In this document: piece after piece, positions 7,327 to 62,988 of the stretch | How the letters are laid out: each line of letters begins with the position of its first letter | Numbering within the stretch: the first letter of the stretch is position 1 | From: Candidatus Binatus soli | Lineage (GTDB): Bacteria; Desulfobacterota; Binatia; Binatales; Binataceae | Length of the DNA stretch: 64,000 bases | Direction: 5' to 3' | NCBI GenBank assembly: GCA_002479255.1 | Contig: DLMJ01000042.1 | Coordinates: 16,942-80,941, forward strand | Translations under genes and position numbers: made by a program | Notes under the pieces: generated by a model | Databases searched by the model: none | Told to the model about the DNA's origin: nothing | The model's input: only the letters and a program-made list of their open reading frames with translations

Positions 7327-9534
<2,208 letters not shown>

Positions 9535-44092: not shown

Positions 44093-46502
44093 TTGGCCAT
44101 GGACGCGCAACATAACCTCGAAGGCCGGGCTGACCAAAAGATCGAACGGTTCCGAATTCGCGGGATGCATTGCGCGAATTGCGCGAGCATCATCGAAAAC
44201 GCCGTCGCGCCGGTTCCCGGCGTCATCGACGCCCATGTAAATTTCGCCGCCGAAACGCTCACCGCGCGCGTCAGCGACAAACTTGCTGCCGGTGAAATCG
44301 AGGCGAGGGTCGCGGCCGCCGGCTATAGCGCGATCGCCGAGTCGAACAGCATTGGCGCGGGCGAATCCGCTCTCGATCGCCAGGATGCGCGCCGCAACCT
44401 GCAGTGGGTAGTCTGCACTGCGATTGGCACGGCAGTCGTCATGTATTTGCAGCATCGCGAGAGCAGCGCCGCGCGCATCGCGACGCTCGTCGCCGCCACG
44501 ACACTGATGTTCACCGCCGGCCTGACCTTCTACCGCGGCGCATGGAGCGCCGCACGCAATCGCACCGCAAACATGGATACGCTGGTCGCGCTTGGCATCA
44601 GCGCCGCCTACTTCTACTCAATACTTACCACGTTTCCCGCTATCTTCTTCGCGGGTCCGCGATTCTTCGATACTGCCGCCGAGCTGATCCTTTTTATTCG
44701 CTTTGGCAAATTCCTCGAGGCGCGCGCTCGCGGCCGCGCGATGGCTGCGTTGCGATCCTTGCTGACCCTCGTCCCCGACGTTGCCACTGTGGTGCGCGAC
44801 GGCAAGGAGCGCGTCGTGCCCGTTTCCGAGTTGGCCGTCGGCGACATCGTGCTGGTCAGGCCCGCTTCCAGAATTCCGGTTGACGGTGTGATCGTCACCG
44901 GCGCCAGCGCCATCGACGAGTCGATGCTTACGGGCGAGTCGATGCCGGCGGACAAGTCGGCGGGCGATGAGGTCTCCGGCGGCACGCTGAACACCGCCGC
45001 TGCGATTACGCGTCGGCGCGCGATTTGTGCCGGCGGTGATCGTGACCGCGGCGCTCACCTTTTCTGTGTGGATGTGGTTCGGCCCGAGTCTCGTGATGGC
45101 GTTGACTGCGATGACCGCCGTGTTGGTGATCGCATGCCCGTGCGCGATGGGATTGGCGACGCCGACTGCGCTTATGGTCGGTAGCGGGCTCGGCCTGCGC
45201 GCGGGGATTTTGTTCAAGCGGGCATCCGCCCTCGAACTGATCACGAGAATCCGGGTCATGCTGTTCGACAAAACCGGCACGCTGACGGTCGGCCGGCCGG
45301 AACTCGAGTCGGTCGTCGCGCTCGACGGCGACGAGAATAGTGCGCTGTCCTTTGCGGCGATCGCCGCCGCCGGATCGATTCATCCGCTGTCGCGAGCCGT
45401 CACCTCCAGCGCGCAAACGCGAAACCTCGCGCCGCAATTCACTCCCGACAACTCACGCGAGATACCGGGCCTGGGCGTTACAGCCGAGCATCACGGAAAA
45501 CAGATCGCGCTTGGCAACGACCGGCTGATGACGCAGGCCGGCGCCGCTGTCGATTCTCGCGCCCGCGACGAGGCGGCTCGCATAGCAGCATCTGCGGCGA
45601 CGCCGCTGTTTCTCGCGATCGATCGCAAGGTGACGGCGGTGCTTGCTTTCCGCGATCCGGTCAAGGCCGAGGCACGCGGCGCGATCGCGGCGCTGCATCG
45701 GATGGGCATCCGCACGGTGATGATTTCCGGCGACAACGCTGAAGTCGTAAAGACCGTCGCTGCTCGATTGGGAGTCGACGAGTTCCATGCGCAACTGATG
45801 CCGGCGGACAAGATTGCGCTCGTCAAGCGGTACCAGGACTCCGGCCTGTTCACCGCGATGGTCGGCGACGGAATCAACGACGCGCCCGCAATTGCCGCCG
45901 CGGACATCGGAATCGCGATCGGCTCCGGCACCGACGCCGCCAAGGAAACCGGCGACGTCGTGCTCACCCGCGACGACTTGTACGACATCGTCCGCGCACT
46001 CGTGCTCGGCCGCGTGACGCTGAACAAGGTGAAGCAAAATCTTTTCTGGGCGTTTTTCTACAACGCGCTCGGAATTCCGATCGCGGCCGGCGTTCTGTAT
46101 CCGCGGTTTGGAATCATGCTGAATCCCGCCCTTGCCGGACTTGCGATGGCGCTGTCGAGCGTCAGCGTCGTCAGCAACGCGCTACTGCTCAATTTAACCG
46201 GCCCGCGAAAATTGCGGGCAGTGCGCGCCGAAATCGAAGCAGTGCCGGGCGCTGCTCCACCGAGTTCCTCGACTCCGCCACAAGCGCGCAGCGAGGTCCC
46301 TGAAAAGAAGGAGATCGCAATGGCAACGAAATTAAAATGCGAAAAATGCGGCTTCGAGACCGCGATGCCGACGCATTGCAATCGCCCGATGCACTCTGAA
46401 CGCGTCGGCCACGAAACCAGGCTGGTGTGCTGGATGGGTCCCGACTGCGGTGTCGCCGATGTACCCAAGCATTGCGATGCGCCCATGCGCGACGCCGCCT
46501 AG
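44093..46502 (+). pseudogene. copA: Cu(I)-translocating P1B-type ATPase (CopA-like), disrupted by a frameshift and a missing ~30-codon segment near 44990-45030; carries a Cys/His-rich C-terminal extension
   Basis: HMA domain GMHCANCAS, TGES, CPC, DKTGT, YN and MxxSS Cu-signature motifs. The frame switches from +2 to +0 between GGTLNTAAAI and FVPAVIV, and the conserved ...AQ.SKAPIQ.LAD... block is absent. Confidence 0.55.
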
Positions 46503-46595: not shown

Positions 46596-47378
46596 ATGCC
46601 GAGCCGGGTTCATCAATTCTACGCGGTAGCTTTCGAGGAAAACTTTTCGCTCCGCCAGATAGCGCCCGCTTTTCCCGAGGCCAGGATATCGCCGCTCGAA
46701 ATGTTCGTGCCGATCGAACCCGACGGCGGCCTCTACGTCTTTCCCTTCGGCGCCATCGTCTCGCACGACGTTCCGGTCGAACAGCGCGAACGCATATTCG
46801 CACGCCTCACCCGCGCCATGCCAAAACTCACCACCCGGATCATTCGCGAGGATTACTCCGTGCTGGAGGATCCTGCCGCGCCGATCGGAATTTCCGGCGG
46901 GATGCTGCGGGTCGACAAGCTCACTTCCCAACGCGCAGAAATCGTCGCGCTGACGGTCGCTCAGAGCGCGGCGATGGAATACTACGAGCGAATCGTGGAC
47001 AGCCTCTTTGCGCGGACCGCACAGTTGGTCGATCGGATGGCGTCGCACGGCACCGTGCCGTATCGGATTACGCCCTTGCATCGCTTCATCGGCGAAGCGA
47101 TTTCGTCGCGCACCGAAGTTCTCGCCGTGCTCCATCTGCTCGACAAGCCCGACGCTGCATGGGAAGACCCCGCGATGGACCTCATCTACGACGACCTGCG
47201 CGATGAATTCGATCTCGTCGATCGTTACGCTGCGCTGACCAGCAAGCTGCAAAGCATCCAGGACTCGCTGGTTCTGGTCCTGGACGTCGCCCGCGACCGC
47301 CGCCTGGTATTGCTCGAAGTCGTTGTCGCGCTGCTGATTTTGCTGGAAATAATCTTGGGCGTCATTCACTTCACGTAG
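46596..47378 (+). CDS. DUF155 (RMD1/YagE-family) protein with a C-terminal TM helix
   Basis: Profile-like match to the DUF155 core (YVFPFGAIV..., KLTSQRAEIVALTVAQSAAMEYYE); GGGAGG SD 6 nt upstream. Confidence 0.65.
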   Translation: MPSRVHQFYAVAFEENFSLRQIAPAFPEARISPLEMFVPIEPDGGLYVFPFGAIVSHDVPVEQRERIFARLTRAMPKLTTRIIREDYSVLEDPAAPIGISGGMLRVDKLTSQRAEIVALTVAQSAAMEYYERIVDSLFARTAQLVDRMASHGTVPYRITPLHRFIGEAISSRTEVLAVLHLLDKPDAAWEDPAMDLIYDDLRDEFDLVDRYAALTSKLQSIQDSLVLVLDVARDRRLVLLEVVVALLILLEIILGVIHFT

Positions 47379-47494: not shown

Positions 47495-47926
47495 ATGTCA
47501 TACGAAAAGGGAATCGACGCCGGACTCCTCCTACCCGGACAGTACGTCGATCTGGTCAGGCGAAATGAGATCATCGAGGGTGAACTGAAACTTTTGCTGG
47601 CCGTTCTGGAAGACGCGATTCGATGCTACCTGCGAAACGTGAACGCGAAGGACGGCGAGCGCCGCGGCGACTTCATCGAGGTCAGAAACTGGTTCGAAGC
47701 CGGGGGCGGTGCGGCCGTCGCCAGACGCGCGGATATTTTCAGCTTCGACAATCTTTGCGCTGCGCTTGGCATCGAGCCGCGTTGCCTGCTTGCGCGCCTG
47801 CAGATTCTCACAATCTCCGATCTGCCGTCGCGGCGTTTCCAGATGCGCCGCCATCGCCCGCTGTCGAGTCTGCAACATGCAAACGGCGCGCGTCAGCGCG
47901 GCCCGGCCCGCTCCCACGGCTCGTGA
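47495..47926 (+). CDS. Hypothetical protein (start taken at internal Met MSYEKG)
   Basis: ORF track 47408..47926; no recognisable family. Confidence 0.4.
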   Translation: MSYEKGIDAGLLLPGQYVDLVRRNEIIEGELKLLLAVLEDAIRCYLRNVNAKDGERRGDFIEVRNWFEAGGGAAVARRADIFSFDNLCAALGIEPRCLLARLQILTISDLPSRRFQMRRHRPLSSLQHANGARQRGPARSHGS

Positions 47927-48005
47927 CGCCGCGAAAAAAGCGTCGGTCCCCGTCAAACCGCCAGGAGTTGCCGTGTCGGCTACGATCTCACCAGACTAAC
48001 TCTCG

Positions 48006-48320
48006 TTAGTCACGCCATCGCACCCAGTCCGGATGATGTTTGTGGATCCATTCCGGATGGTGGTCGAACCACCAACCGCGGTCGCGCCATACGTGATGCT
48101 CGTCCCAGTCGCCGTCGACGGCGCGCCACTGGGGGTACACCTTGACCCATTCGGGATGATGGTGCCAGACCCATGCGGGGTGGTGTTCGTGCCACCAGCG
48201 CGCGTCGTGCCATACGTGATGGTTGTCCCAATCACCGTAGTTGCGCGCATGTGAAACCGCCGGCGCAGCGGCGAAGACGGCTGTCAGTGCTGCGGCGGCG
48301 AATATGGTTCGAAGTTTCAT
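48006..48320 (-). CDS. Secreted His/Trp-rich repeat protein (two ~35-aa repeats with HHVW...HHPxWV motifs); candidate periplasmic metal-binding protein
   Basis: Signal peptide MKLRTIFAAAALTAVFAAAPAVSHA, AGGAGG SD 7 nt upstream; 18 His and 14 Trp in an ~80-aa mature chain. Confidence 0.7.
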   Translation of the reverse strand: MKLRTIFAAAALTAVFAAAPAVSHARNYGDWDNHHVWHDARWWHEHHPAWVWHHHPEWVKVYPQWRAVDGDWDEHHVWRDRGWWFDHHPEWIHKHHPDWVRWRD

Positions 48321-48509
48321 TCCTGGTGCCTCCTGGATAGCCTCACGAGAATAATACGACGGATCGATAGTGGCAGTTTCAAGGCGGCCAGAAAATCGCC
48401 AAGGATCAGCAAGCTTCGGCCCGATTAGCCCCAATTCGTGGCTGCCTCGCAAAATCTACAGAATGAAGAACGCGAATGCGGTCAAGCTGCCGACGGCATA
48501 CGAGTCGGT

Positions 48510-48585
48510 TGGTGGGCAGGGAGTGAATCGAACACTCGACACAAGGATTTTCAGTCCTTTGCTCTACCGACTGAGCTACCTGCCC
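48510..48585 (-). tRNA. tRNA-Phe (anticodon GAA), CCA encoded
   Basis: Cloverleaf: acceptor GGGCAGG/CCTGCCC, D-arm TAGCTCAGTCGGTAGAGC, anticodon loop CTGAAAA, T-arm GGTTCGATTCC. Confidence 0.9.
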
Positions 48586-48660
48586 ACCGTGTTTGGTCAC
48601 GTCCGCCGTGAAGCGAACCATCATTCGTACCGATGATTGCCGCGCCTTGCAACGGCCCAT

Positions 48661-49662
48661 TCATCGCTTGAGGCCCGCCACCCGCGACTCGACGAAATCA
48701 ATCACCCGGCCTTCCAGATTCACGCCGTCGAGCCTGTCGATCTCCTGCACTCCGGTCGGACTCGTCACATTCACCTCGGTCAGGTAGTCGCCGATGATGT
48801 CGAGCCCGACAAAGTACAGCCCGTCGCGCTCGAGGCGCGGCTTCAGCATCCGGCAGATATCGCGATCGCGCGCCGTGATCGGCGCCTTGACGCAAGTGCC
48901 GCCGACGTGGATGTTGCCGCGATGCTCGTCCTCGCGCGGCACCCGCAGCGTGCATCCTAGAGGTTCTCCGTCCAGCACGATCAGCCGCTTGTCGCCGTTG
49001 CGAGCCTCAGGGATATAGCGCTGCGCCATGATTGGACGCGACTCGTATTGCGTCACCGTCTCGAGAATCGCGCCGAGGTTGCGATCCCTGGTCGTGACGA
49101 GGAACACGCCTTCGCCGCCGTGTCCGTCCAGCGGCTTCACGATCATCTCGCCGCCCTGTTCGTCAAGAAAAGCCTTCAGGCGGGGAATTTCATAGGTGAC
49201 GAGCGTCGGCGGAATCGCGTCGGGAAAATTCAGCGAGTAGAGCTTTTCGTTGGCTTCGCGAAGGCCGGCCGGATGGTTGATTACAAACGTGCGCCGGCTG
49301 TCGGCCAGGCTAAGCAGCATCGTGGCGTAGAGATAAGCCGCATCGGCGGGCGGATCCTTGCGCATGAAGATCGCATCGAAAGTCTCCAGCGGATACTCGG
49401 CGCCCTCGTCGAGGAACCGGTGATGAGGACTCCCGCGCGTCACCTCGCATTGCCGCGCCCGCGCGATCACATTCGGGCCGCGCGCGTAAAGGTCGCGAAT
49501 CCCGAGGACATAGATTTCATGGCCGCGGAATTGCGCCTCGAGAATGAACACAAACGTCGTGTCCTTGTCGACCAGAACCCGTTCCAGCGGGTCCATGACG
49601 AACGCGAACTTGCGCGCCACCCTTTTATTCCGTTTCGGCATCTTCGCTTGACCCTTGCGCAT
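48661..49662 (-). CDS. gshB: Glutathione synthetase (prokaryotic ATP-grasp type)
   Basis: Collinear with E. coli GshB (MRKDPP, GDKRLIVLDGEP, FVGLDIIGDYLTEVNVTSPTG); the start may be ATG 49641 rather than 49662. Confidence 0.85.
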   Translation of the reverse strand: MRKGQAKMPKRNKRVARKFAFVMDPLERVLVDKDTTFVFILEAQFRGHEIYVLGIRDLYARGPNVIARARQCEVTRGSPHHRFLDEGAEYPLETFDAIFMRKDPPADAAYLYATMLLSLADSRRTFVINHPAGLREANEKLYSLNFPDAIPPTLVTYEIPRLKAFLDEQGGEMIVKPLDGHGGEGVFLVTTRDRNLGAILETVTQYESRPIMAQRYIPEARNGDKRLIVLDGEPLGCTLRVPREDEHRGNIHVGGTCVKAPITARDRDICRMLKPRLERDGLYFVGLDIIGDYLTEVNVTSPTGVQEIDRLDGVNLEGRVIDFVESRVAGLKR

Positions 49663-58503: not shown

Positions 58504-59601
58504 TCATCCGCCCGGCGTCGCGGTCGCCGTAGGAGTCGCGCTCAGGGTTGCGGTTGCGGTTGCCGTTCGGGTTGCCGTCGCGGTTGCGGTTGCCGTTGGG
58601 GTTGCAGTCGTAGTTGCCGTCGCGGTCGCGGTAGCGGTTGGGGTTCCCGTTCGGGTTGCCGTCGCGGTAACGGTTACCGTCGCGGTTGCGGTTGTCGTTG
58701 GGGTTGGAGTCGTAGTTTGAGTCGCGGTCGCGGTAGTGGTTGGTGTTGCCGTTCGGGTTGCCGTCGCGGTAGCGGTCGCCGTCGCGGTAGCGGTCGCCGT
58801 CGCGGTAGCGGTTGCAGTCGCGGTAGCGGTTGCCGTTGGGGATGCCGTTGGGGTTGCCGTCACGGTCGGGGTCGGGGTCGCGGTCGGCGCTACGAAGATG
58901 CAGGCGCAGGAGCCTTGTCCGCTACCCAGCCGTGTGATGTCGGCGCACGTTTCCGGCAGTCCGTCATTGAGTTCGTCCGCAGCCGGAACATCGGCTTGGA
59001 ACACGTCTTCGGTGATCTGGGTATTCTGAACGTGAGATGCCCAAGCCATTAGTTCGCTATTGGTGGCCAGTATGAAGCTGGTGCCCGCCGCGGTTGGATC
59101 GCAGCAGACGCCGGTGCTGGGGTCGCAAGCTGCATATGTGGGCTGCGAATCCCCGTATGGAGCTGGAGTGCCATTTGGCAAGGTCGATATGATACGGACC
59201 GAGCCGTCGTGGAGGAGGCCCCCTGTCACCGGGTTCCCCGCCAAACTGCCACTGATGCTGAGGGTCAACAGACCATCCGCGGTCAGCGGGCATCCGCAGC
59301 AGGCCTGCATCGATTGCTCGGTATTGAAGACGTAGATCATCGCGCAGATTTCGCCCTCTCGCGAGGCGGGGGTGGCGCCCGTTGCATCTCCCTCGAGGGG
59401 AGCCGTGATATTGACGGAGGCCTGTCCCCCCTTGGTGTTGGCGTTGCTGAAATAATTCTGCAACTCAGTCCCGTACTCTTCGGACTCTGCCGCCGCCCTG
59501 CCTGACAACGCGAACGTCGCGAGGGCCACGGCCAGCAGAATCATCGTGCTTGTGCTCAGGACTCTCTTACCTAAAGGCGCTAAGGCCCATACACCATTCA
59601 T
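58504..59601 (-). CDS. Secreted Cys-rich protein with a ~115-aa C-terminal (Thr-Ala)n / TATP low-complexity tail
   Basis: Signal peptide, then a ~200-aa domain with 10 Cys (ACCGCP, CDPSTGVCCDP, CACIF), then TATATATA...PGG. Start at ATG 59601 (MNGVW) with GGGAG upstream. Confidence 0.7.
   Translation of the reverse strand: MNGVWALAPLGKRVLSTSTMILLAVALATFALSGRAAAESEEYGTELQNYFSNANTKGGQASVNITAPLEGDATGATPASREGEICAMIYVFNTEQSMQACCGCPLTADGLLTLSISGSLAGNPVTGGLLHDGSVRIISTLPNGTPAPYGDSQPTYAACDPSTGVCCDPTAAGTSFILATNSELMAWASHVQNTQITEDVFQADVPAADELNDGLPETCADITRLGSGQGSCACIFVAPTATPTPTVTATPTASPTATATATATATATATATATATATATATRTATPTTTATATQTTTPTPTTTATATVTVTATATRTGTPTATATATATTTATPTATATATATRTATATATLSATPTATATPGG
58507..58870. 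repeat. Coding hexanucleotide microsatellite (GCSGTM)n, ~360 bp, encoding the (Thr-Ala)n tail on the minus strand
   Basis: gtcgcggtagcggtcgccgtcgcggtagcggt... read directly. Confidence 0.7.
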
Positions 59602-59685
59602 GGTGGAATTTTTTCTCCCTGTCTCGCTGAAAACGGCGTAACCGTTAGCATCCCTCAACTAGGCTTTCAAGCGGCGTTCGGGTTG

Positions 59686-59836: not shown

Positions 59837-59852
59837 TGGCATCTCGCTTGCA
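59837..59852 (+). promoter_or_regulatory. Candidate sigma-54 (-24/-12) promoter TGGCATctcgcTTGCA, oriented toward the Wza-like gene
   Basis: Matches TGGCAC-N5-TTGCW with the exact GG-to-GC spacing; about 355 nt upstream of ATG 60208. Confidence 0.5.
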
Positions 59853-60207
59853 ATCTCCTGATTTCGATGTTACGTTCGCGCCCGAACTGTCAGCGAACGC
59901 GGGGGAGACTGACAAGAGATTCCGCGTTCTCAAGCTTGGTGCCGCTGGTTCGGCGATGAGTTTTGCACCGACCAGAGTGGTAAAACGTAACCAAAGCTAT
60001 GCCTGAGCTGCATGGCTGGGCGGACGCGTGTGCGCCAATCCCCACGGTTCTTGCGGTCCAGTTGGGCCCGAGATAGCGGCGGTCGCGGAGCGCGATCGAA
60101 CTTTGCGATGGCTGGGGAGATGGGCCGAAAGGTCGCTATTTGCCGAGCCCCGTCTCCGAGACTCGGCGCGCCATTCTCGTCCGGTTCGGTATGCGGGAAA
60201 TACGATC

Positions 60208-62988
60208 ATGAAGATGGGCAATCATTCGATCCGGGTCACTAAGCGGACTGCGAGCCTGTTCGGCGCGTTAGCAACGGTTGCGGCGCTTGTCTGGTTCGCA
60301 AGCACACCTGTAGAGGCTCAGTTTTTGCCGACAGCACCAGCGCCGCCCCCGGGGTCATCCTCGACGAGCGACGAACCGGTAATCGCTCCGCCCGACACGG
60401 CCAGTTCGGGAACAGTCGACAGCGGGGCCGCTCCGGGCGCACCTATATCCCTTTCCCCGGCACAGATTGAGCAGGCACGCTCGATGATTGGAAATGGCGC
60501 CGCTTCGCCGGAGGCGATACAGCGTCTGTGCGCGGGAGTGGCGGCCAAGCACTTGACTGCCGACCAGATAGACTCCACCGCCGCGTCCCTGGGACTATCG
60601 GGCGAGCAAATTGCGGAACTCAAAAACTGTGCATCCTCTGCGAGCACGGCGCCGCCGGAGGCGAGTCCGCGCGCGAACTCTTCAAGCTCAAGTCAGACTC
60701 CGGGAGGTCCGGTCGGCACTGCGGCGAGTGCGAACGGCGAGAGTCTGTCATCGATCGAAGGCTCCTTTCGTTCGCTCGCCGCCCCATCGCAACAGGTGCA
60801 CAATCCGACTCCCTCAAATCTGCGCCAGTTCGGCTACGCCTTGTTCAGCGGCCCGGTCTCAACCTTCGCACCGCTCGGTGACGTGCCGGTTGGTGCGGAT
60901 TACGTATTGGGTCCTGGCGACGAGCTCAATTTGCTGATGTGGGGCCGCGTCAACCGCACCTCGCGTCTCAAGGTCGAGCGGGACGGCAGCGTGCTGATTC
61001 CGGAGATCGGGCCGGTGGAAGTGTCCGGCCTGACTTTCGAGCAAGCGAAGAAGCTTATCGAGAGCCGTGCCGGACAGATCACGGGTGTGCAAGTGGACGT
61101 GACGATGGGTTCGATCCGCACCATTCAGGTGTTCGTGATCGGCAAGGTTGAGCATCCGGGGCTTTTCACGGTCAGCGCGCTGTCGCACGTGTCTAACGCG
61201 TTGGTCGCGTCGGGCGGCATCAGCAAGATCGGCACGCTGCGAAGGGTCGAGCTACGACGGGGCAATCAGCTGATCCGCGAGATCGATCTCTATGACATGC
61301 TCCTGCATGGCAAAACGTCGGCTGACGTGCGCCTGGAGCAGGGCGACGTAATCTTCGTGCCGGTAATCGGCAACGTAGTAGGGGTGACCGGGGATGTGAA
61401 AGACCCCGCCATTTACGAGCTGCGCGGCCAGGAAGATTTGGCAGCGGTGCTCCGTATGGCGGGTGGAGTCGGCGCCTTCGGCTATTCGCAACGCCTGCAG
61501 GTTGAGCGCATCAACAACCACGAACATCGGGTTGACATCGACGTGGCATTGTCGAGCCGGCAGTTCAGCAGTTTCGCGGTGCGCGATGGCGATCTGGTCA
61601 AGGTCTACACCGTGCTGCCGGAGCGCAACAACGTCGTGACACTTAAGGGCAACGCACGACGCCCAGGGGTCTACGAGTGGCGGCCTTATATGCGGGTGTC
61701 GGATTTGATCGGCGAAGGCGAGGGCGTCGCCGATCATACCTATTTCGGCTATGCGCTCATCCGTCGGATCGAGGGTCCCGATCGCCGCGTTCACTATCTG
61801 CCGGTCGACCTCAGCGCCGCGCTGCGCAGCCCCGCTTCGGGACAGGTCAACCTCGTCCTTGAGCCGCGCGACGAACTGACGGTTTATGCAGAGACCGACA
61901 TTGGCGATCTCCCCCATGTGAGCATCACCGGCTCCGTCCGCAAGCCCGGCAGCTACGTGCTGAGCTCGGGGATGCGCGTAAGTGATCTGGTTTATGAGGC
62001 TGGGGGTATCAAGGAGAGCGCCTACCTGAACAAGGCCGAACTCGCGCGCGTTAAAGTCGTCGATGGCACTGCGCGGTTCCTGTACCAGGACATTGCGCTC
62101 GGTAGCGCGCTCGATGGCGTAGGGGGCGAGGATCCGGCGCTGGAGACCGGCGATCACCTTTTCGTCGCCGAAGCGTCCAACTGGCACCAACCGTGGACCG
62201 CGGTGGTCGAGGGAGAAGTAATGCGGCCCGGGCCCTACGTGATTCGCGAAGGTGAGCGGCTGAACTCCTTGCTGGAACGTTGCGGCGGGCTGAGAGCTGA
62301 CGCCTATCTTGAGGCCACGGTATTCGTCCGCGAATCGGTTCAGGACTTGGAGCAGAAGGAGCTGGACGACAGCCGCCGCCGGCTCCAGGCAGACGCCGCG
62401 CGGCTCGCGATGATGCCGAAGCAGCAGTCCGCAAATAACAATACGGCGCAGACCCTTGAGGTAGTGCAGCGGGTGCTCACAGAGACCCAGTCGCAGCAAG
62501 CAACCGGGCGCGTGATTCTGCACTTGCAGTCACTGGACCGACTGCCCTCCTCGCAGGACGACATCGTTCTCCAGCAGGGGGACAAAGTCATAGTTCCCAA
62601 GCGTCCCTCGACCGTGGCGATCCTGGGCCAGGTCTTCAATCCAAGTGCGATCGTCTACGAACGGGGCCGCTCGGTGAGCGACTACCTGCAGCGCTCGGGC
62701 GGACCGACGCAGTGGGCCGACACGGACCACATCATGCTGATCCGCGCCAGCGGCGACATCGTCACCGACCAGAGTATACGCCATAGCGGGAAAGCGGCGT
62801 TGTTTCCGTTGCTGCCGGCGATCTCGGGCGGCCTGATGGGCGTCGAGGTCGAACGCGGCGACACGATCTATGTGCCGGAGACCCTGCGGTACGTTGACGA
62901 GATGCAGGAAGCCAAGGACATCACGCAGATCATCGTCAACGCCGCGACCTCGCTCGCGGTGCTTGGAATTCTGGCGACCAATCTTTAA
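60208..62988 (+). CDS. Large polysaccharide export outer-membrane protein (Wza/KpsD family: Poly_export domain plus multiple SLBB beta-grasp repeats), 926 aa
   Basis: Signal peptide; GADYVLGPGDELNLLMWG Poly_export motif; repeated GDVIFVP / GDTIYVP SLBB-type segments. Start at ATG 60208; the track's upstream extension is rejected. Confidence 0.85.
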   Translation: MKMGNHSIRVTKRTASLFGALATVAALVWFASTPVEAQFLPTAPAPPPGSSSTSDEPVIAPPDTASSGTVDSGAAPGAPISLSPAQIEQARSMIGNGAASPEAIQRLCAGVAAKHLTADQIDSTAASLGLSGEQIAELKNCASSASTAPPEASPRANSSSSSQTPGGPVGTAASANGESLSSIEGSFRSLAAPSQQVHNPTPSNLRQFGYALFSGPVSTFAPLGDVPVGADYVLGPGDELNLLMWGRVNRTSRLKVERDGSVLIPEIGPVEVSGLTFEQAKKLIESRAGQITGVQVDVTMGSIRTIQVFVIGKVEHPGLFTVSALSHVSNALVASGGISKIGTLRRVELRRGNQLIREIDLYDMLLHGKTSADVRLEQGDVIFVPVIGNVVGVTGDVKDPAIYELRGQEDLAAVLRMAGGVGAFGYSQRLQVERINNHEHRVDIDVALSSRQFSSFAVRDGDLVKVYTVLPERNNVVTLKGNARRPGVYEWRPYMRVSDLIGEGEGVADHTYFGYALIRRIEGPDRRVHYLPVDLSAALRSPASGQVNLVLEPRDELTVYAETDIGDLPHVSITGSVRKPGSYVLSSGMRVSDLVYEAGGIKESAYLNKAELARVKVVDGTARFLYQDIALGSALDGVGGEDPALETGDHLFVAEASNWHQPWTAVVEGEVMRPGPYVIREGERLNSLLERCGGLRADAYLEATVFVRESVQDLEQKELDDSRRRLQADAARLAMMPKQQSANNNTAQTLEVVQRVLTETQSQQATGRVILHLQSLDRLPSSQDDIVLQQGDKVIVPKRPSTVAILGQVFNPSAIVYERGRSVSDYLQRSGGPTQWADTDHIMLIRASGDIVTDQSIRHSGKAALFPLLPAISGGLMGVEVERGDTIYVPETLRYVDEMQEAKDITQIIVNAATSLAVLGILATNL

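What the first reader, a model, noticed from the sequence alone, without database searches (positions are those of the whole stretch)
48006..48320. Secreted His/Trp-rich tandem-repeat protein near the Cu-ATPase
The ~80-aa mature protein is about 22% His and 17% Trp. It is built from two ~35-aa repeats (DWDxHHVWxDxxWWxxHHPxWxxxHHPxWV). It has a clean Sec signal and a strong SD. Clustered His pairs of this kind are typical of periplasmic Cu, Ni or Zn buffering proteins. It lies two genes from copA and next to a DUF155 protein and an uncharacterised protein. I do not recognise the repeat as a described family.
Basis: partly seen in the sequence, partly recalled or inferred. Interest (0 to 1): 0.6.

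Follow-up and report, generated by a model that had tools for sequence, protein, structure and literature searches.

The report
Secreted Trp/His-rich repeat protein, Binataceae-only
This is a real, conserved gene for a small exported protein built from two copies of an undescribed tryptophan- and histidine-rich repeat found only in the uncultured soil family Binataceae; it may bind metals in the periplasm, but nothing ties it to the neighbouring copper pump, and its function is unproven.

Summary
Window 48006..48320 (-) encodes a 104-aa protein with a Sec-type signal. The ~79-aa mature part is 20% His, 19% Trp and 13% Asp, and consists of two ~31-aa repeats. It is a real gene: 23 orthologs, third-codon-position variation, dN/dS ~0.13.

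The copper reading is not supported. copA adjacency is seen only in the closest relatives. copA is broken by a 104-nt deletion in this window. Mature orthologs contain no Met or Cys.

Generic divalent-metal binding remains the best guess (~0.4). His positions are conserved, and 27 paralogs carry (HG)n/(HD)n tails.

New finding: all 22 ortholog loci have a conserved sigma-54 -24/-12 promoter, and a paralog class shares one with a Gly-zipper lipoprotein gene. In this window's species both core dinucleotides are mutated.

A pH or envelope-stress role is a serious rival. Interest is moderate.

The parts
48006..48320 (-). ORF of 104 codons plus stop: the Trp/His-rich repeat protein
   Evidence: Translation. 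Purifying selection and third-position variation over 23 orthologs. The exact protein is indexed in 177 blocks of the public assembly collection.
48246..48320 (-). Sec-type signal peptide, residues 1-25 (MKLRTIFAAAALTAVFAAAPAVSHA)
   Evidence: By inspection: K2/R4 n-region, hydrophobic core, S-H-A at -3..-1, no lipobox Cys, no twin-Arg. Nearly invariant across orthologs.
48147..48239 (-). Repeat 1, residues 28-58 (YGDWDNHHVWHDARWWHEHHPAWVWHHHPEW)
   Evidence: Repeat HMM hit at E 1.1e-12. The AF2 model shows a beta-hairpin plus short helices.
48024..48116 (-). Repeat 2, residues 69-99 (DGDWDEHHVWRDRGWWFDHHPEWIHKHHPDW)
   Evidence: Repeat HMM hit at E 8.3e-13. Same predicted secondary structure as repeat 1.
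48329..48334 (-). Shine-Dalgarno AGGAGG, ending 8 nt before the ATG
   Evidence: Sequence. GGAGG is conserved in 22 of the 23 aligned sequences; L002 has GGCGG.
48360..48375 (-). Degenerate sigma-54 -24/-12 element: TGCCACTATCGATCCG here, versus TGGCAT-N5-ATGC[AT] in orthologs
   Evidence: Alignment of upstream regions. 19 of 22 loci match the strict pattern, against 25 hits in 1.75 Mb of background. The window's GG>GC and GC>CC changes are reproduced in three independent assemblies.
48447..48462 (-). Conserved upstream block TCTGTAGATTTTGCGA (orthologs: TCTGTAGATTTTGCAGA, an inverted repeat TCTG-N9-CAGA). Candidate enhancer-binding-protein site; the right arm is altered in the window.
   Evidence: Upstream alignment. 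The function is inferred, not tested.
48392..48417 (-). Second conserved upstream block (GAAGMTTGCTGATYYTTSGCGATTTT) between the candidate enhancer site and the -24 element
   Evidence: Upstream alignment. Role unknown.
47934..47960 (-). Terminator-like hairpin plus T-run, about 45 nt after the stop codon
   Evidence: Consensus scan. One site was found against 0.8 expected in shuffles, so on its own this is weak evidence.

Best explanation
**What is shown.** The gene encodes a Sec-exported, soluble periplasmic protein of ~79 residues (~10.5 kDa). It is made of two copies of a previously undescribed ~31-residue repeat.

**What the model predicts.** Each repeat is predicted to fold as a beta-hairpin (GDWD..HHxW) followed by three short helices. 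Each helix is opened by an His-Pro cap (HHPxW). Five near-invariant Trp per repeat supply almost the whole hydrophobic core.

**Inferred mechanism.** About a dozen position-conserved His, plus the GDxD Asp residues, sit around this Trp scaffold. I infer that they bind borderline divalent cations (Cu2+, Ni2+, Zn2+ or Co2+, not Cu+). The protein would then act as a periplasmic metal buffer or chaperone. It would be a functional analogue of SmbP or ZraP, but not a homologue of either.

**Regulation.** In the ortholog group the gene is a monocistronic unit fired from a sigma-54 promoter. It is therefore switched on by a still unidentified enhancer-binding protein in response to a specific signal. 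In the species of this window the -24 GG and -12 GC are both mutated, so that control is probably lost or replaced.

**Confidence.** The anatomy, export, family membership and sigma-54 element rest on sequence evidence. Metal binding, and which metal, are inference. The confidence figure applies to the metal-binding mechanism. That the gene and the family are real is above 0.95.
For: - **Real gene.** Codon-position entropy is 0.29/0.29/0.84 and dN/dS is 0.13.
- **Repeat definition.** From 494 unique repeats: G 100%, D 95%, Trp 92-100% at five positions, His 96% (the HHP motif) and His 74% (the HxW motif).
- **Conserved His.** 11 His positions are at least 87% conserved in 23 orthologs. His count is held at 14-18 per mature protein.
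- **His-rich tails.** 27 of 137 family members with tails of at least 8 aa carry (HG)n, (HD)n or HHHH tails of the kind known to bind Ni/Zn/Cu. One paralog, L026, has PPMHRMPP repeats; P0036 is the same sequence with a longer N-terminus.
- **Structure model.** pLDDT is about 85 across the mature part, with a repeated hairpin-plus-helices pattern.
- **Sigma-54 element.** GG-N10-GC is kept in 22/22 GTDB ortholog loci. A second paralog class has its own sigma-54 element.
- **Weak context hint.** The giant paralogs lie 1.5-5 kb from a NicO-like membrane protein with a His-rich loop. That Pfam match is below the curated cut-off.
Against:
- **His is not the invariant feature.** In the multi-repeat paralogs His falls to about 9% while Trp stays at about 21%. 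Most His are therefore not needed for the fold. Only two per repeat are family-wide, and one of those looks like a helix N-cap.
- **No support from context.** Genomic context gives no metal signal. copA linkage is not conserved, and there is no enrichment of metal families among 134 neighbours of paralogs.
- **Sigma-54 is unspecific.** Sigma-54 control fits many stresses, not only metals.
- **Damaged promoter here.** The promoter is damaged in this very window.
Confidence: 0.4

Rival explanations
1. It is a pH-switched envelope-stress protein. With 16 His, 14 acidic and 9 basic residues, the mature protein goes from net negative near pH 7 to strongly positive below about pH 6. Protonation would drive the Trp-rich surface onto anionic membranes, lipopolysaccharide or unfolded envelope proteins, protecting the envelope in acid soils. 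Any metal binding would be incidental.
For: - Composition: 16 His, 14 Asp+Glu, 9 Lys+Arg, calculated pI 6.3.
- Class (b) paralogs sit about 45 nt downstream of a Gly-zipper outer-membrane lipoprotein gene (Pfam Gly-zipper_Omp, E 4e-8). That gene lies behind a shared sigma-54 promoter in 8 of 8 such loci. From my own knowledge, the Gly-zipper lipoproteins OsmB and SlyB are envelope-stress proteins.
- Sigma-54 regulons include envelope-stress genes (psp from my own knowledge; zraP per PMC4987338).
- Source MAGs come from palsa mire, Danish (MFD-labelled) samples and Centralia, by their record names.
Against: - (HG)n/(HD)n tails are more typical of metal binding than of pH sensing.
- No experiment exists.
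- The ortholog class itself is monocistronic, with no lipoprotein partner.
Confidence: 0.25
2. It is a Trp-core scaffold or ligand-binding repeat with no ion role. The repeat would be a structural or adhesive module that binds peptidoglycan, exopolysaccharide or another protein through exposed aromatic residues. The small two-repeat protein would be a soluble version of the long envelope proteins.
For: - Trp, Gly, Asp and Pro, not His, are the family-wide invariants.
- Paralogs have at least 11 repeats, followed by Q/E-rich, coiled-coil-like regions and Gly-rich tails, as in envelope fibres.
- The architectures are highly modular, with extra N-terminal modules.
Against: - Two His per repeat are conserved in 74-96% of 494 repeats, and 11 His positions are conserved in orthologs.
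- There is no similarity to known carbohydrate- or cell-wall-binding repeats in Pfam.
- Tight sigma-54 control is unusual for a structural protein.
Confidence: 0.2
3. The protein is a periplasmic copper-buffering partner of the adjacent CopA P-type ATPase and receives the Cu+ that CopA exports.
For: - copA (HMA + E1-E2_ATPase + Hydrolase domains) lies two genes away in the window and in L001, L002 and L004.
- The protein is His-rich and exported.
Against: - copA is further away in L003, L011, L016 and L018. No copA match lies between DUF155 and clpP in L005, L007, L009, L013-L015, L020, L021 and L023.
- The gene is convergent to the copA-DUF155-unknown block and has its own promoter and terminator.
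- copA here carries a 104-nt frameshifting deletion, while the repeat protein stays intact and identical across samples.
- There is no Met or Cys in any mature ortholog. From my own knowledge, CusF, CopC and PcoE use Met.
Confidence: 0.05
4. It is not a gene. The ORF would be open by chance in GC-rich DNA, or the true product would be one of the overlapping ORFs on either strand.
For: Three other frames are also open across the region: 47996..48250 (-), 48010..48231 (-) and 48033..48254 (+). My crude ORF caller sometimes chose the antisense ORF.
Against: - Variation is concentrated at the third codon position of the proposed frame, and dN/dS is 0.13.
- The signal peptide and SD are conserved.
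- 188 diverged relatives share the same repeat.
Confidence: 0.01

Closest known systems
[quoted passage not shown]
   Same: A ~10-kDa Sec-exported periplasmic protein, very His-rich, built from short internal repeats, and used as an IMAC tag because it binds divalent metals (PMC7137794 and PMC8929023, listed; details of its repeats come from my own knowledge).
   Different: No sequence relationship: the profile search of all PDB chains gave only two chance-level hits. From my own knowledge, SmbP is all-helical without a Trp core. This protein has 19% Trp and a predicted hairpin-plus-helices repeat. Its taxonomic range is restricted to Binataceae.
ZraP (CpxP/Spy family), the sigma-54-dependent zinc-binding periplasmic chaperone of enterobacteria
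   Same: A small periplasmic protein expressed from a sigma-54 promoter in response to zinc or envelope stress (PMC4987338). This regulatory logic parallels the conserved -24/-12 element of the orthologs.
   Different: No Pfam CpxP-like/LTXXQ match and no PDB sequence match. No adjacent two-component or enhancer-binding-protein gene: no GAFTGA motif in the window or in any locus. The promoter core is mutated in this window.
CusF / CopC / PcoE-SilE periplasmic copper and silver proteins
   Same: Small exported metal handlers, sometimes encoded near copper pumps. From my own knowledge, CusF uses a Trp cation-pi contact.
   Different: From my own knowledge, those proteins rely on Met (and His) for Cu+/Ag+. 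This family has no Met or Cys in the mature ortholog, no Pfam hit and no conserved linkage to cop or cus genes.
His-rich low-complexity metal tails, (HG)n/(HD)n, as on HypB, UreE, SlyD and ZinT
   Same: 27 paralogs end in such tails, for example HGHGHGHGHD and HDHDHDHD. The comparison with the named proteins comes from my own knowledge.
   Different: The window protein itself has no such tail. Its His are embedded at fixed positions in a folded repeat.

Membership tests
Trp/His-rich 31-aa repeat family (defined here; no public name) | Match to the repeat profile [WD]-G-D-[YWF]-D-x2-H-x-W-[HR]-[DP]-x2-W-W-x5-P-x-W-V-x2-[HN]-H-P-[ED]-W | tested here: met
   Two hits at E ~1e-12 in the window, and none elsewhere in the 64 kb. 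The profile was built from 550 repeats in 234 proteins.
Trp/His-rich 31-aa repeat family (defined here; no public name) | N-terminal Sec signal peptide | tested here: met
   Present and conserved in orthologs and in most paralogs. Judged by inspection only.
Sigma-54-dependent genes | -24 GG and -12 GC separated by 10 nt (TGGCAC-N5-TTGCW; consensus cited from PMC12316311) | tested here: not met
   The window has TGCCAC-N5-ATCCG, with both dinucleotides changed. This is reproduced in L062-L064. All 22 GTDB ortholog loci do keep GG-N10-GC.
Sigma-54-dependent genes | A cognate enhancer-binding protein (AAA+ with GAFTGA) and rpoN in the genome | tested here: inconclusive
   No GAFTGA-containing ORF in the window or in 61 flanking loci. 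Whole genomes were not available to me.
SmbP-like small metal-binding proteins | Sequence or fold homology to SmbP | tested here: not met
SmbP-like small metal-binding proteins | Binds several divalent metal ions per chain | not testable with these tools
   Needs ITC or ICP-MS on purified protein.
CpxP/Spy/ZraP family | CpxP-like fold with LTXXQ motifs (Pfam LTXXQ/CpxP-like) | tested here: not met
   No Pfam or NCBIfam hit at E<=1. There is no LTXXQ motif in the sequence.
Periplasmic Cu(I) proteins (CusF, CopC, PcoE/SilE) | Met/Cys-based Cu(I) ligand set and a family HMM match | tested here: not met
   Zero Met and zero Cys in all 23 mature orthologs. No Pfam hit.
Periplasmic Cu(I) proteins (CusF, CopC, PcoE/SilE) | Conserved linkage to copper resistance genes | tested here: not met
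   copA adjacency occurs only in the nearest relatives. copA is disrupted in the window.

The most novel reading that the evidence does not exclude
The repeat is a new mini-fold whose core is made almost entirely of tryptophan: five invariant Trp per 31 residues, with no structural neighbour in the PDB. It would display His/Asp sites that sense or buffer metal ions or protons in the periplasm under sigma-54 control. That would make it a new, Binataceae-specific class of envelope homeostasis proteins. Its members would range from 8-kDa soluble units to ~570-aa multi-repeat proteins that could span the periplasm.
Probability: 0.3. Interest if true: 0.65.

Novelty: new variant of a known kind. 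Interest (0 to 1): 0.45.

Why it matters
If the metal or proton-binding reading is right, this would be a structurally new solution to periplasmic ion buffering, in a globally common but uncultured soil lineage (Binataceae). Its 15 Trp give it a built-in fluorescence read-out, which makes it an easy biophysical target.

A fold held together mainly by Trp would also interest protein designers.

The conserved sigma-54 promoter gives a handle for finding the signal and the regulator.

The practical value is limited. The organisms are uncultured, the family is narrow, and no long-standing question hinges on it.

Tried and rejected
- **Family libraries.** Pfam and NCBIfam scans of the protein and of seven diverse paralogs found no family. 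The only hits were sub-threshold MHB (haemophore) matches, E 0.018-0.048, to an N-terminal module of L035 and L039. That module is absent from the window protein.
- **copA guilt by association.** Rejected after the synteny table, the deletion analysis and the population check.
- **Neighbours of paralogs.** 134 non-redundant neighbours of paralogs were scanned against Pfam in one batch. Only miscellaneous metabolism and PAS/His-kinase genes came up, with no metal enrichment.
- **Nearby regulator.** A search for an enhancer-binding protein by the GAFTGA motif in the window and 61 loci found none.
- **Other promoters and RNAs.** There is no sigma-70-like promoter in 47700..48700. Rfam found only tRNA-Phe.
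- **5' leader hairpin.** RNAalifold on a MAFFT alignment of 18 leaders predicted no consensus structure. The hairpins seen by eye are therefore unconfirmed.
- **Palindromic operator instead of sigma-54.** I considered that the -24/-12 block is a palindromic operator (GCAT-N5-ATGC). In class (b) only 3 of 8 sites are palindromic, yet all keep TGGCA[CT]-N5-[AG]TGC[CT]. I therefore prefer sigma-54, at about 0.8 confidence.
- **Literature.** Searches for His-rich plus Trp-rich periplasmic proteins returned only antimicrobial-peptide reviews.

Full report
**1. The observation**

Window 48006..48320 on the minus strand is an ORF of 104 codons.
- The first 25 residues (MKLRTIFAAAALTAVFAAAPAVSHA) look like a Sec signal peptide. 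They have a basic n-region, an Ala/Leu/Val core and S-H-A before the cut, with no lipobox Cys and no twin-Arg. This is by inspection.
- The 79-residue mature part has 16 His (20.3%), 15 Trp (19.0%) and 10 Asp (12.7%). Its calculated pI is 6.3 and its mass 10.5 kDa.
- It is an internal duplication. Residues 28-58 and 69-99 align with each other (BLOSUM62 score 163), and each matches a 31-position repeat profile at E ~1e-12.
- AGGAGG ends 8 nt before the ATG.
- A hairpin plus T-run follows the stop codon at 47960..47944.

**2. Is it a gene?**

Three other reading frames are also open across the region, so I tested the frame. I used the window plus 22 orthologous loci from GTDB genomes.
- Per-codon-position entropy is 0.29/0.29/0.84.
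- Median pairwise dN is 0.13, dS is 1.02 and dN/dS is 0.13.
- The exact protein sequence is indexed in 177 blocks of the public assembly collection.

It is a real gene under purifying selection.

**3. The family**

*Size and range.*
- A word-indexed search of 5.8 billion proteins found only 29 clusters. All are unnamed or 'hypothetical', and one comes from 'Candidatus Binatus sp.'.
- An exhaustive profile search of 1.84 billion representatives found 188 clusters at 50% identity with E<=1e-3.
- A scan of one genome per GTDB species gave 61 loci. Most records are labelled Candidatus Binatus or Binataceae, or carry generic 'uncultured delta proteobacterium', 'Deltaproteobacteria' or 'Proteobacteria' names.
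- Two short contigs labelled Terriglobales or Acidiferrales carry typical Binataceae synteny and are probably mis-binned.

*The repeat.* I built a repeat HMM iteratively from 234 family proteins, giving 550 repeats of which 494 are unique. The unit is [WD]-G-D-[YWF]-D-x2-H-x-W-[HR]-[DP]-x2-W-W-x5-P-x-W-V-x2-[HN]-H-P-[ED]-W.
- Gly is 100% and Asp 95% conserved.
- Five Trp are 92-100% conserved.
- One His is 96% conserved (the second His of HHP).
- One His is 74% conserved (in HxW).

*Architectures*.
- (a) The 104-108-aa two-repeat orthologs.
- (b) Two-repeat paralogs, several ending in HGHGHG-type tails.
- (c) 91-97-aa forms.
- (d) ~570-aa secreted proteins with at least 11 repeats, then a Q/E-rich region and a Gly/His tail.
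- (e) Forms with an extra N-terminal 'xxHPxxAxxL..NPxYxxxHPxLxxFLxxHP' module.
- (f) Single-repeat forms.

Only one member lies in the window.

**4. Relation to known families and folds**

- Pfam-A and NCBIfam give nothing at E<=1 for the window protein.
- Pfam gives nothing significant for seven diverse paralogs.
- A profile search of all PDB chain sequences gives only chance-level hits.
- The AlphaFold2 model was built from a 17-sequence alignment. It has pLDDT 74.7 overall, about 85 over the mature part, and pTM 0.53.
- In the model each repeat is a beta-hairpin followed by short helices that start at the His-Pro motifs.

The repeat is an undescribed sequence family. As far as a medium-confidence model allows, its fold has no solved neighbour. 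I could not inspect coordinates, so no binding-site geometry is claimed.

**5. Genomic context**

The local order in the window is:
- gltX, clpP and copA on the plus strand;
- then DUF155 (46596..47378) and a 143-aa unknown (47495..47926), both plus;
- then the repeat gene, tRNA-Phe (48510..48585) and gshB, all minus.

The repeat gene is convergent with the copA-DUF155-unknown block.

Across 23 syntenic loci (L001-L018, L020, L021, L023, L027), unk172 is detected in all and DUF155 in all but one short contig (L010). This is ordinary synteny inside one bacterial family.

copA is not constant.
- It abuts DUF155 only in L001, L002 and L004.
- It lies several kb away in L003, L011, L016 and L018.
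- No copA match lies between DUF155 and clpP in L005, L007, L009, L013-L015, L020, L021 and L023.

Most loci also have a PNPOx-family gene between the repeat gene and the unknown.

In the window, copA is split into two overlapping ORFs.
- Alignment with L002 shows a 104-nt deletion between short direct repeats, which shifts the frame.
- Independent assemblies of the same population carry either the split form (L062, L064) or an intact 835-aa copA (L063).
- All three encode the identical repeat protein.

The batch Pfam scan of 134 non-redundant neighbours of the paralogs shows no metal-related enrichment. The one hint is a NicO-like membrane protein with a His-rich loop, 1.5-5 kb from the giant paralogs. 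It scores below Pfam's cut-off and could be plain synteny.

**6. A conserved sigma-54 promoter, broken in this window**

Aligning 260 nt upstream of the orthologs reveals a sharply conserved block, CTGAAAC-TGGCAT-N5-ATGC[AT]-TCGTA. Its first base lies 55-105 nt before the ATG.
- It fits the sigma-54 consensus TGGCAC-N5-TTGCW (PMC12316311).
- 19 of 22 loci match a strict pattern that occurs only 25 times in 1.75 Mb of both-strand background. 19 of those 25 hits are these same sites.
- The other three loci still keep GG-N10-GC.

Further upstream are two more conserved blocks: the inverted repeat TCTGTAGATTTTGCAGA and an A/T-rich block. These are plausible enhancer elements, but this is inference.

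Class (b) paralogs have their own TGGCA[CT]-N5-[AG]TGC[CT] element with different upstream palindromes (GGTAA..TTACC). It lies in front of a Gly-zipper lipoprotein gene (Pfam Gly-zipper_Omp, E 4e-8). That gene is followed after about 45 nt by the repeat gene in 8 of 8 such loci. Sigma-54 control is therefore an old feature of the two-repeat branch.

No enhancer-binding protein (GAFTGA) is encoded in the window or in any flank.

The window itself reads TGCCAC-TATCG-ATCCG. Both the -24 GG and the -12 GC are changed, and the right arm of the upstream inverted repeat is altered as well. The same sequence is present in three independent assemblies, so it is not an error. In this species the gene has probably lost sigma-54 control. 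No sigma-70-like promoter was detected, so how it is transcribed is open.

**7. What it most likely does**

*Points bearing on metal binding.*
- 11 His positions are at least 87% conserved among orthologs. The His count is held at 14-18.
- 27 of 137 family members with a C-terminal tail end in (HG)n, (HD)n or poly-His tracts.
- L026 (P0036 is the same sequence with a longer N-terminus) carries PPMHRMPP repeats.
- The GDxD turn adds carboxylates.
- There is a precedent for a sigma-54-driven periplasmic metal-binding protein in ZraP (PMC4987338).
- No mature ortholog has a single Met or Cys. That argues against Cu+ chemistry and for borderline divalent ions.

*Points against.*
- Trp, not His, is the invariant feature of the family.
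- His falls to about 9% in the multi-repeat paralogs.
- The 96%-conserved His precedes a Pro at a helix start and may simply cap the helix.
- Genomic context gives no support.

I therefore put periplasmic divalent-metal binding or buffering at about 0.4.

*Rivals.*
- The main rival, at about 0.25, is a pH or envelope-stress role. The charge of the protein flips around pH 6. Trp-rich cationic surfaces bind membranes. One paralog class is co-transcribed with a Gly-zipper lipoprotein. The source names point to mire and soil samples.
- A purely structural or adhesive Trp-scaffold role is at about 0.2.
- The CopA-partner reading is at about 0.05.

**8. Novelty and verdict**

The family is new as a sequence family, and probably as a fold. 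If it is a metal buffer, it is a new variant of a known kind (SmbP, ZraP), not a homologue of either.

It is unusual in having five invariant Trp per 31 residues. It is lineage-restricted and has an interesting regulatory story. But it is a single small protein of unproven function in uncultured bacteria. Interest is 0.45.

Noticed in passing
window 44093..46502 (+), breakpoint near 45008..45020: copA (HMA + E1-E2_ATPase + Hydrolase) is split into two overlapping ORFs by a 104-nt deletion between short direct repeats, relative to L002. Other assemblies of the same population carry either the split gene (L062, L064) or an intact 835-aa gene (L063). This looks like a real polymorphic pseudogene.
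   Followed up: yes
window 48360..48375 (-) and 48447..48462 (-): The sigma-54 -24 GG and -12 GC, conserved in all 22 GTDB ortholog loci, are both mutated in this species (TGCCAC..ATCCG). The upstream inverted repeat has also lost its right arm. The same sequence appears in three independent assemblies. How the gene is transcribed here is unexplained.
   Followed up: partly
L038, L044, L047-L053, L055, L056 (e.g. L047:8001-9728): Secreted paralogs of ~460-580 aa have at least 11 copies of the repeat (WGDFDDxHxWRPAGWWWQxxPDWVRxNHPDWW). These are followed by a Q/E-rich region and a GGGGGGHxEAPHGGGG tail. They are syntenic with a GST gene and a NicO-like membrane protein that has a His-rich loop.
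   Followed up: partly
L019, L022, L024, L025, L028, L029, L034, L036 (about 7480..8400): A two-repeat paralog class is encoded about 45 nt downstream of a Gly-zipper outer-membrane lipoprotein gene. Both sit behind a separate sigma-54-like promoter with GGTAA..TTACC palindromes upstream. Several members of the class end in HGHGHG tails.
   Followed up: partly
L026:1611-2657, L035:8001-8639, L039:8001-8522; P0036, P0047, P0080, P0087, P0107: Some family members carry one to several copies of a second N-terminal module (..FLxxHPxxAxxLxxNPxLxYxPxxxxxHPxLxxFLxxHPxxW..). It gives only sub-threshold hits to Pfam MHB, the mycobacterial haemophore family (E 0.018-0.048). L026 (and P0036, the same sequence) also has PPMHRMPP(V/A) repeats at the C-terminus.
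   Followed up: no
L003, L005-L018, L020, L021, L023: 5' leader between the -12 element and the SD: Most orthologs have a short inverted repeat in the leader, for example GGTGAGGC-TGTT-GCCTCACC in L003 and GTGGGGC-ATTTT-GCCCC in L008. The stems differ between species. It is deleted in the window, L001, L002 and L004. RNAalifold on a MAFFT alignment found no consensus structure.
   Followed up: partly
window 59837..59852 (+): This is the only strict sigma-54-pattern match in the window (TGGCATCTCGCTTGCA). It lies about 190 nt upstream of a 986-aa Wza-like polysaccharide export gene (60028..62988; Poly_export + SLBB domains). 13 of 100 shuffles give at least one such match, so it may be chance.
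   Followed up: partly
window 58504..59658 (-): A 384-aa ORF with a signal-like N-terminus, a Cys-rich middle and a long C-terminal (Thr-Ala/Thr-Pro)n low-complexity tract. No Pfam family.
   Followed up: no
window 47996..48250 (-), 48010..48231 (-), 48033..48254 (+); P0023, P0024, P0025, P0028: Because the gene is built from CAC/CAT/TGG/GAC codons, other frames on both strands stay open across it. Several database 'proteins' are chimeras that switch into the alternative frame (..TTITYGTTRAGGT..), probably from frameshifted assemblies.
   Followed up: partly
window 46596..47378 (+) and 47495..47926 (+): The DUF155 (RMND1/Sif2-like) protein has a weak CorA-like match over its C-terminal half (E 3.4e-4, below the cut-off). 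The adjacent 143-aa protein has no family. Both are conserved next to the repeat gene across Binataceae, but in the convergent orientation.
   Followed up: no
L010 (JBAWBE010000539.1) and L027 (DASQHV010000347.1): Contigs of 3.8 and 6.3 kb assigned to Terriglobales and Acidiferrales MAGs carry the Binataceae-type gene order (repeat gene, PNPOx, unknown, DUF155). They are probably binning errors rather than transfer.
   Followed up: no
L006, L011, L012, L015, L017, L020: between gshB/tRNA-Phe and the repeat gene, or between it and the unknown gene: Insertions of 2-6 kb of unrelated genes occur at this spot in several species, next to tRNA-Phe. This suggests an integration hot-spot.
   Followed up: no
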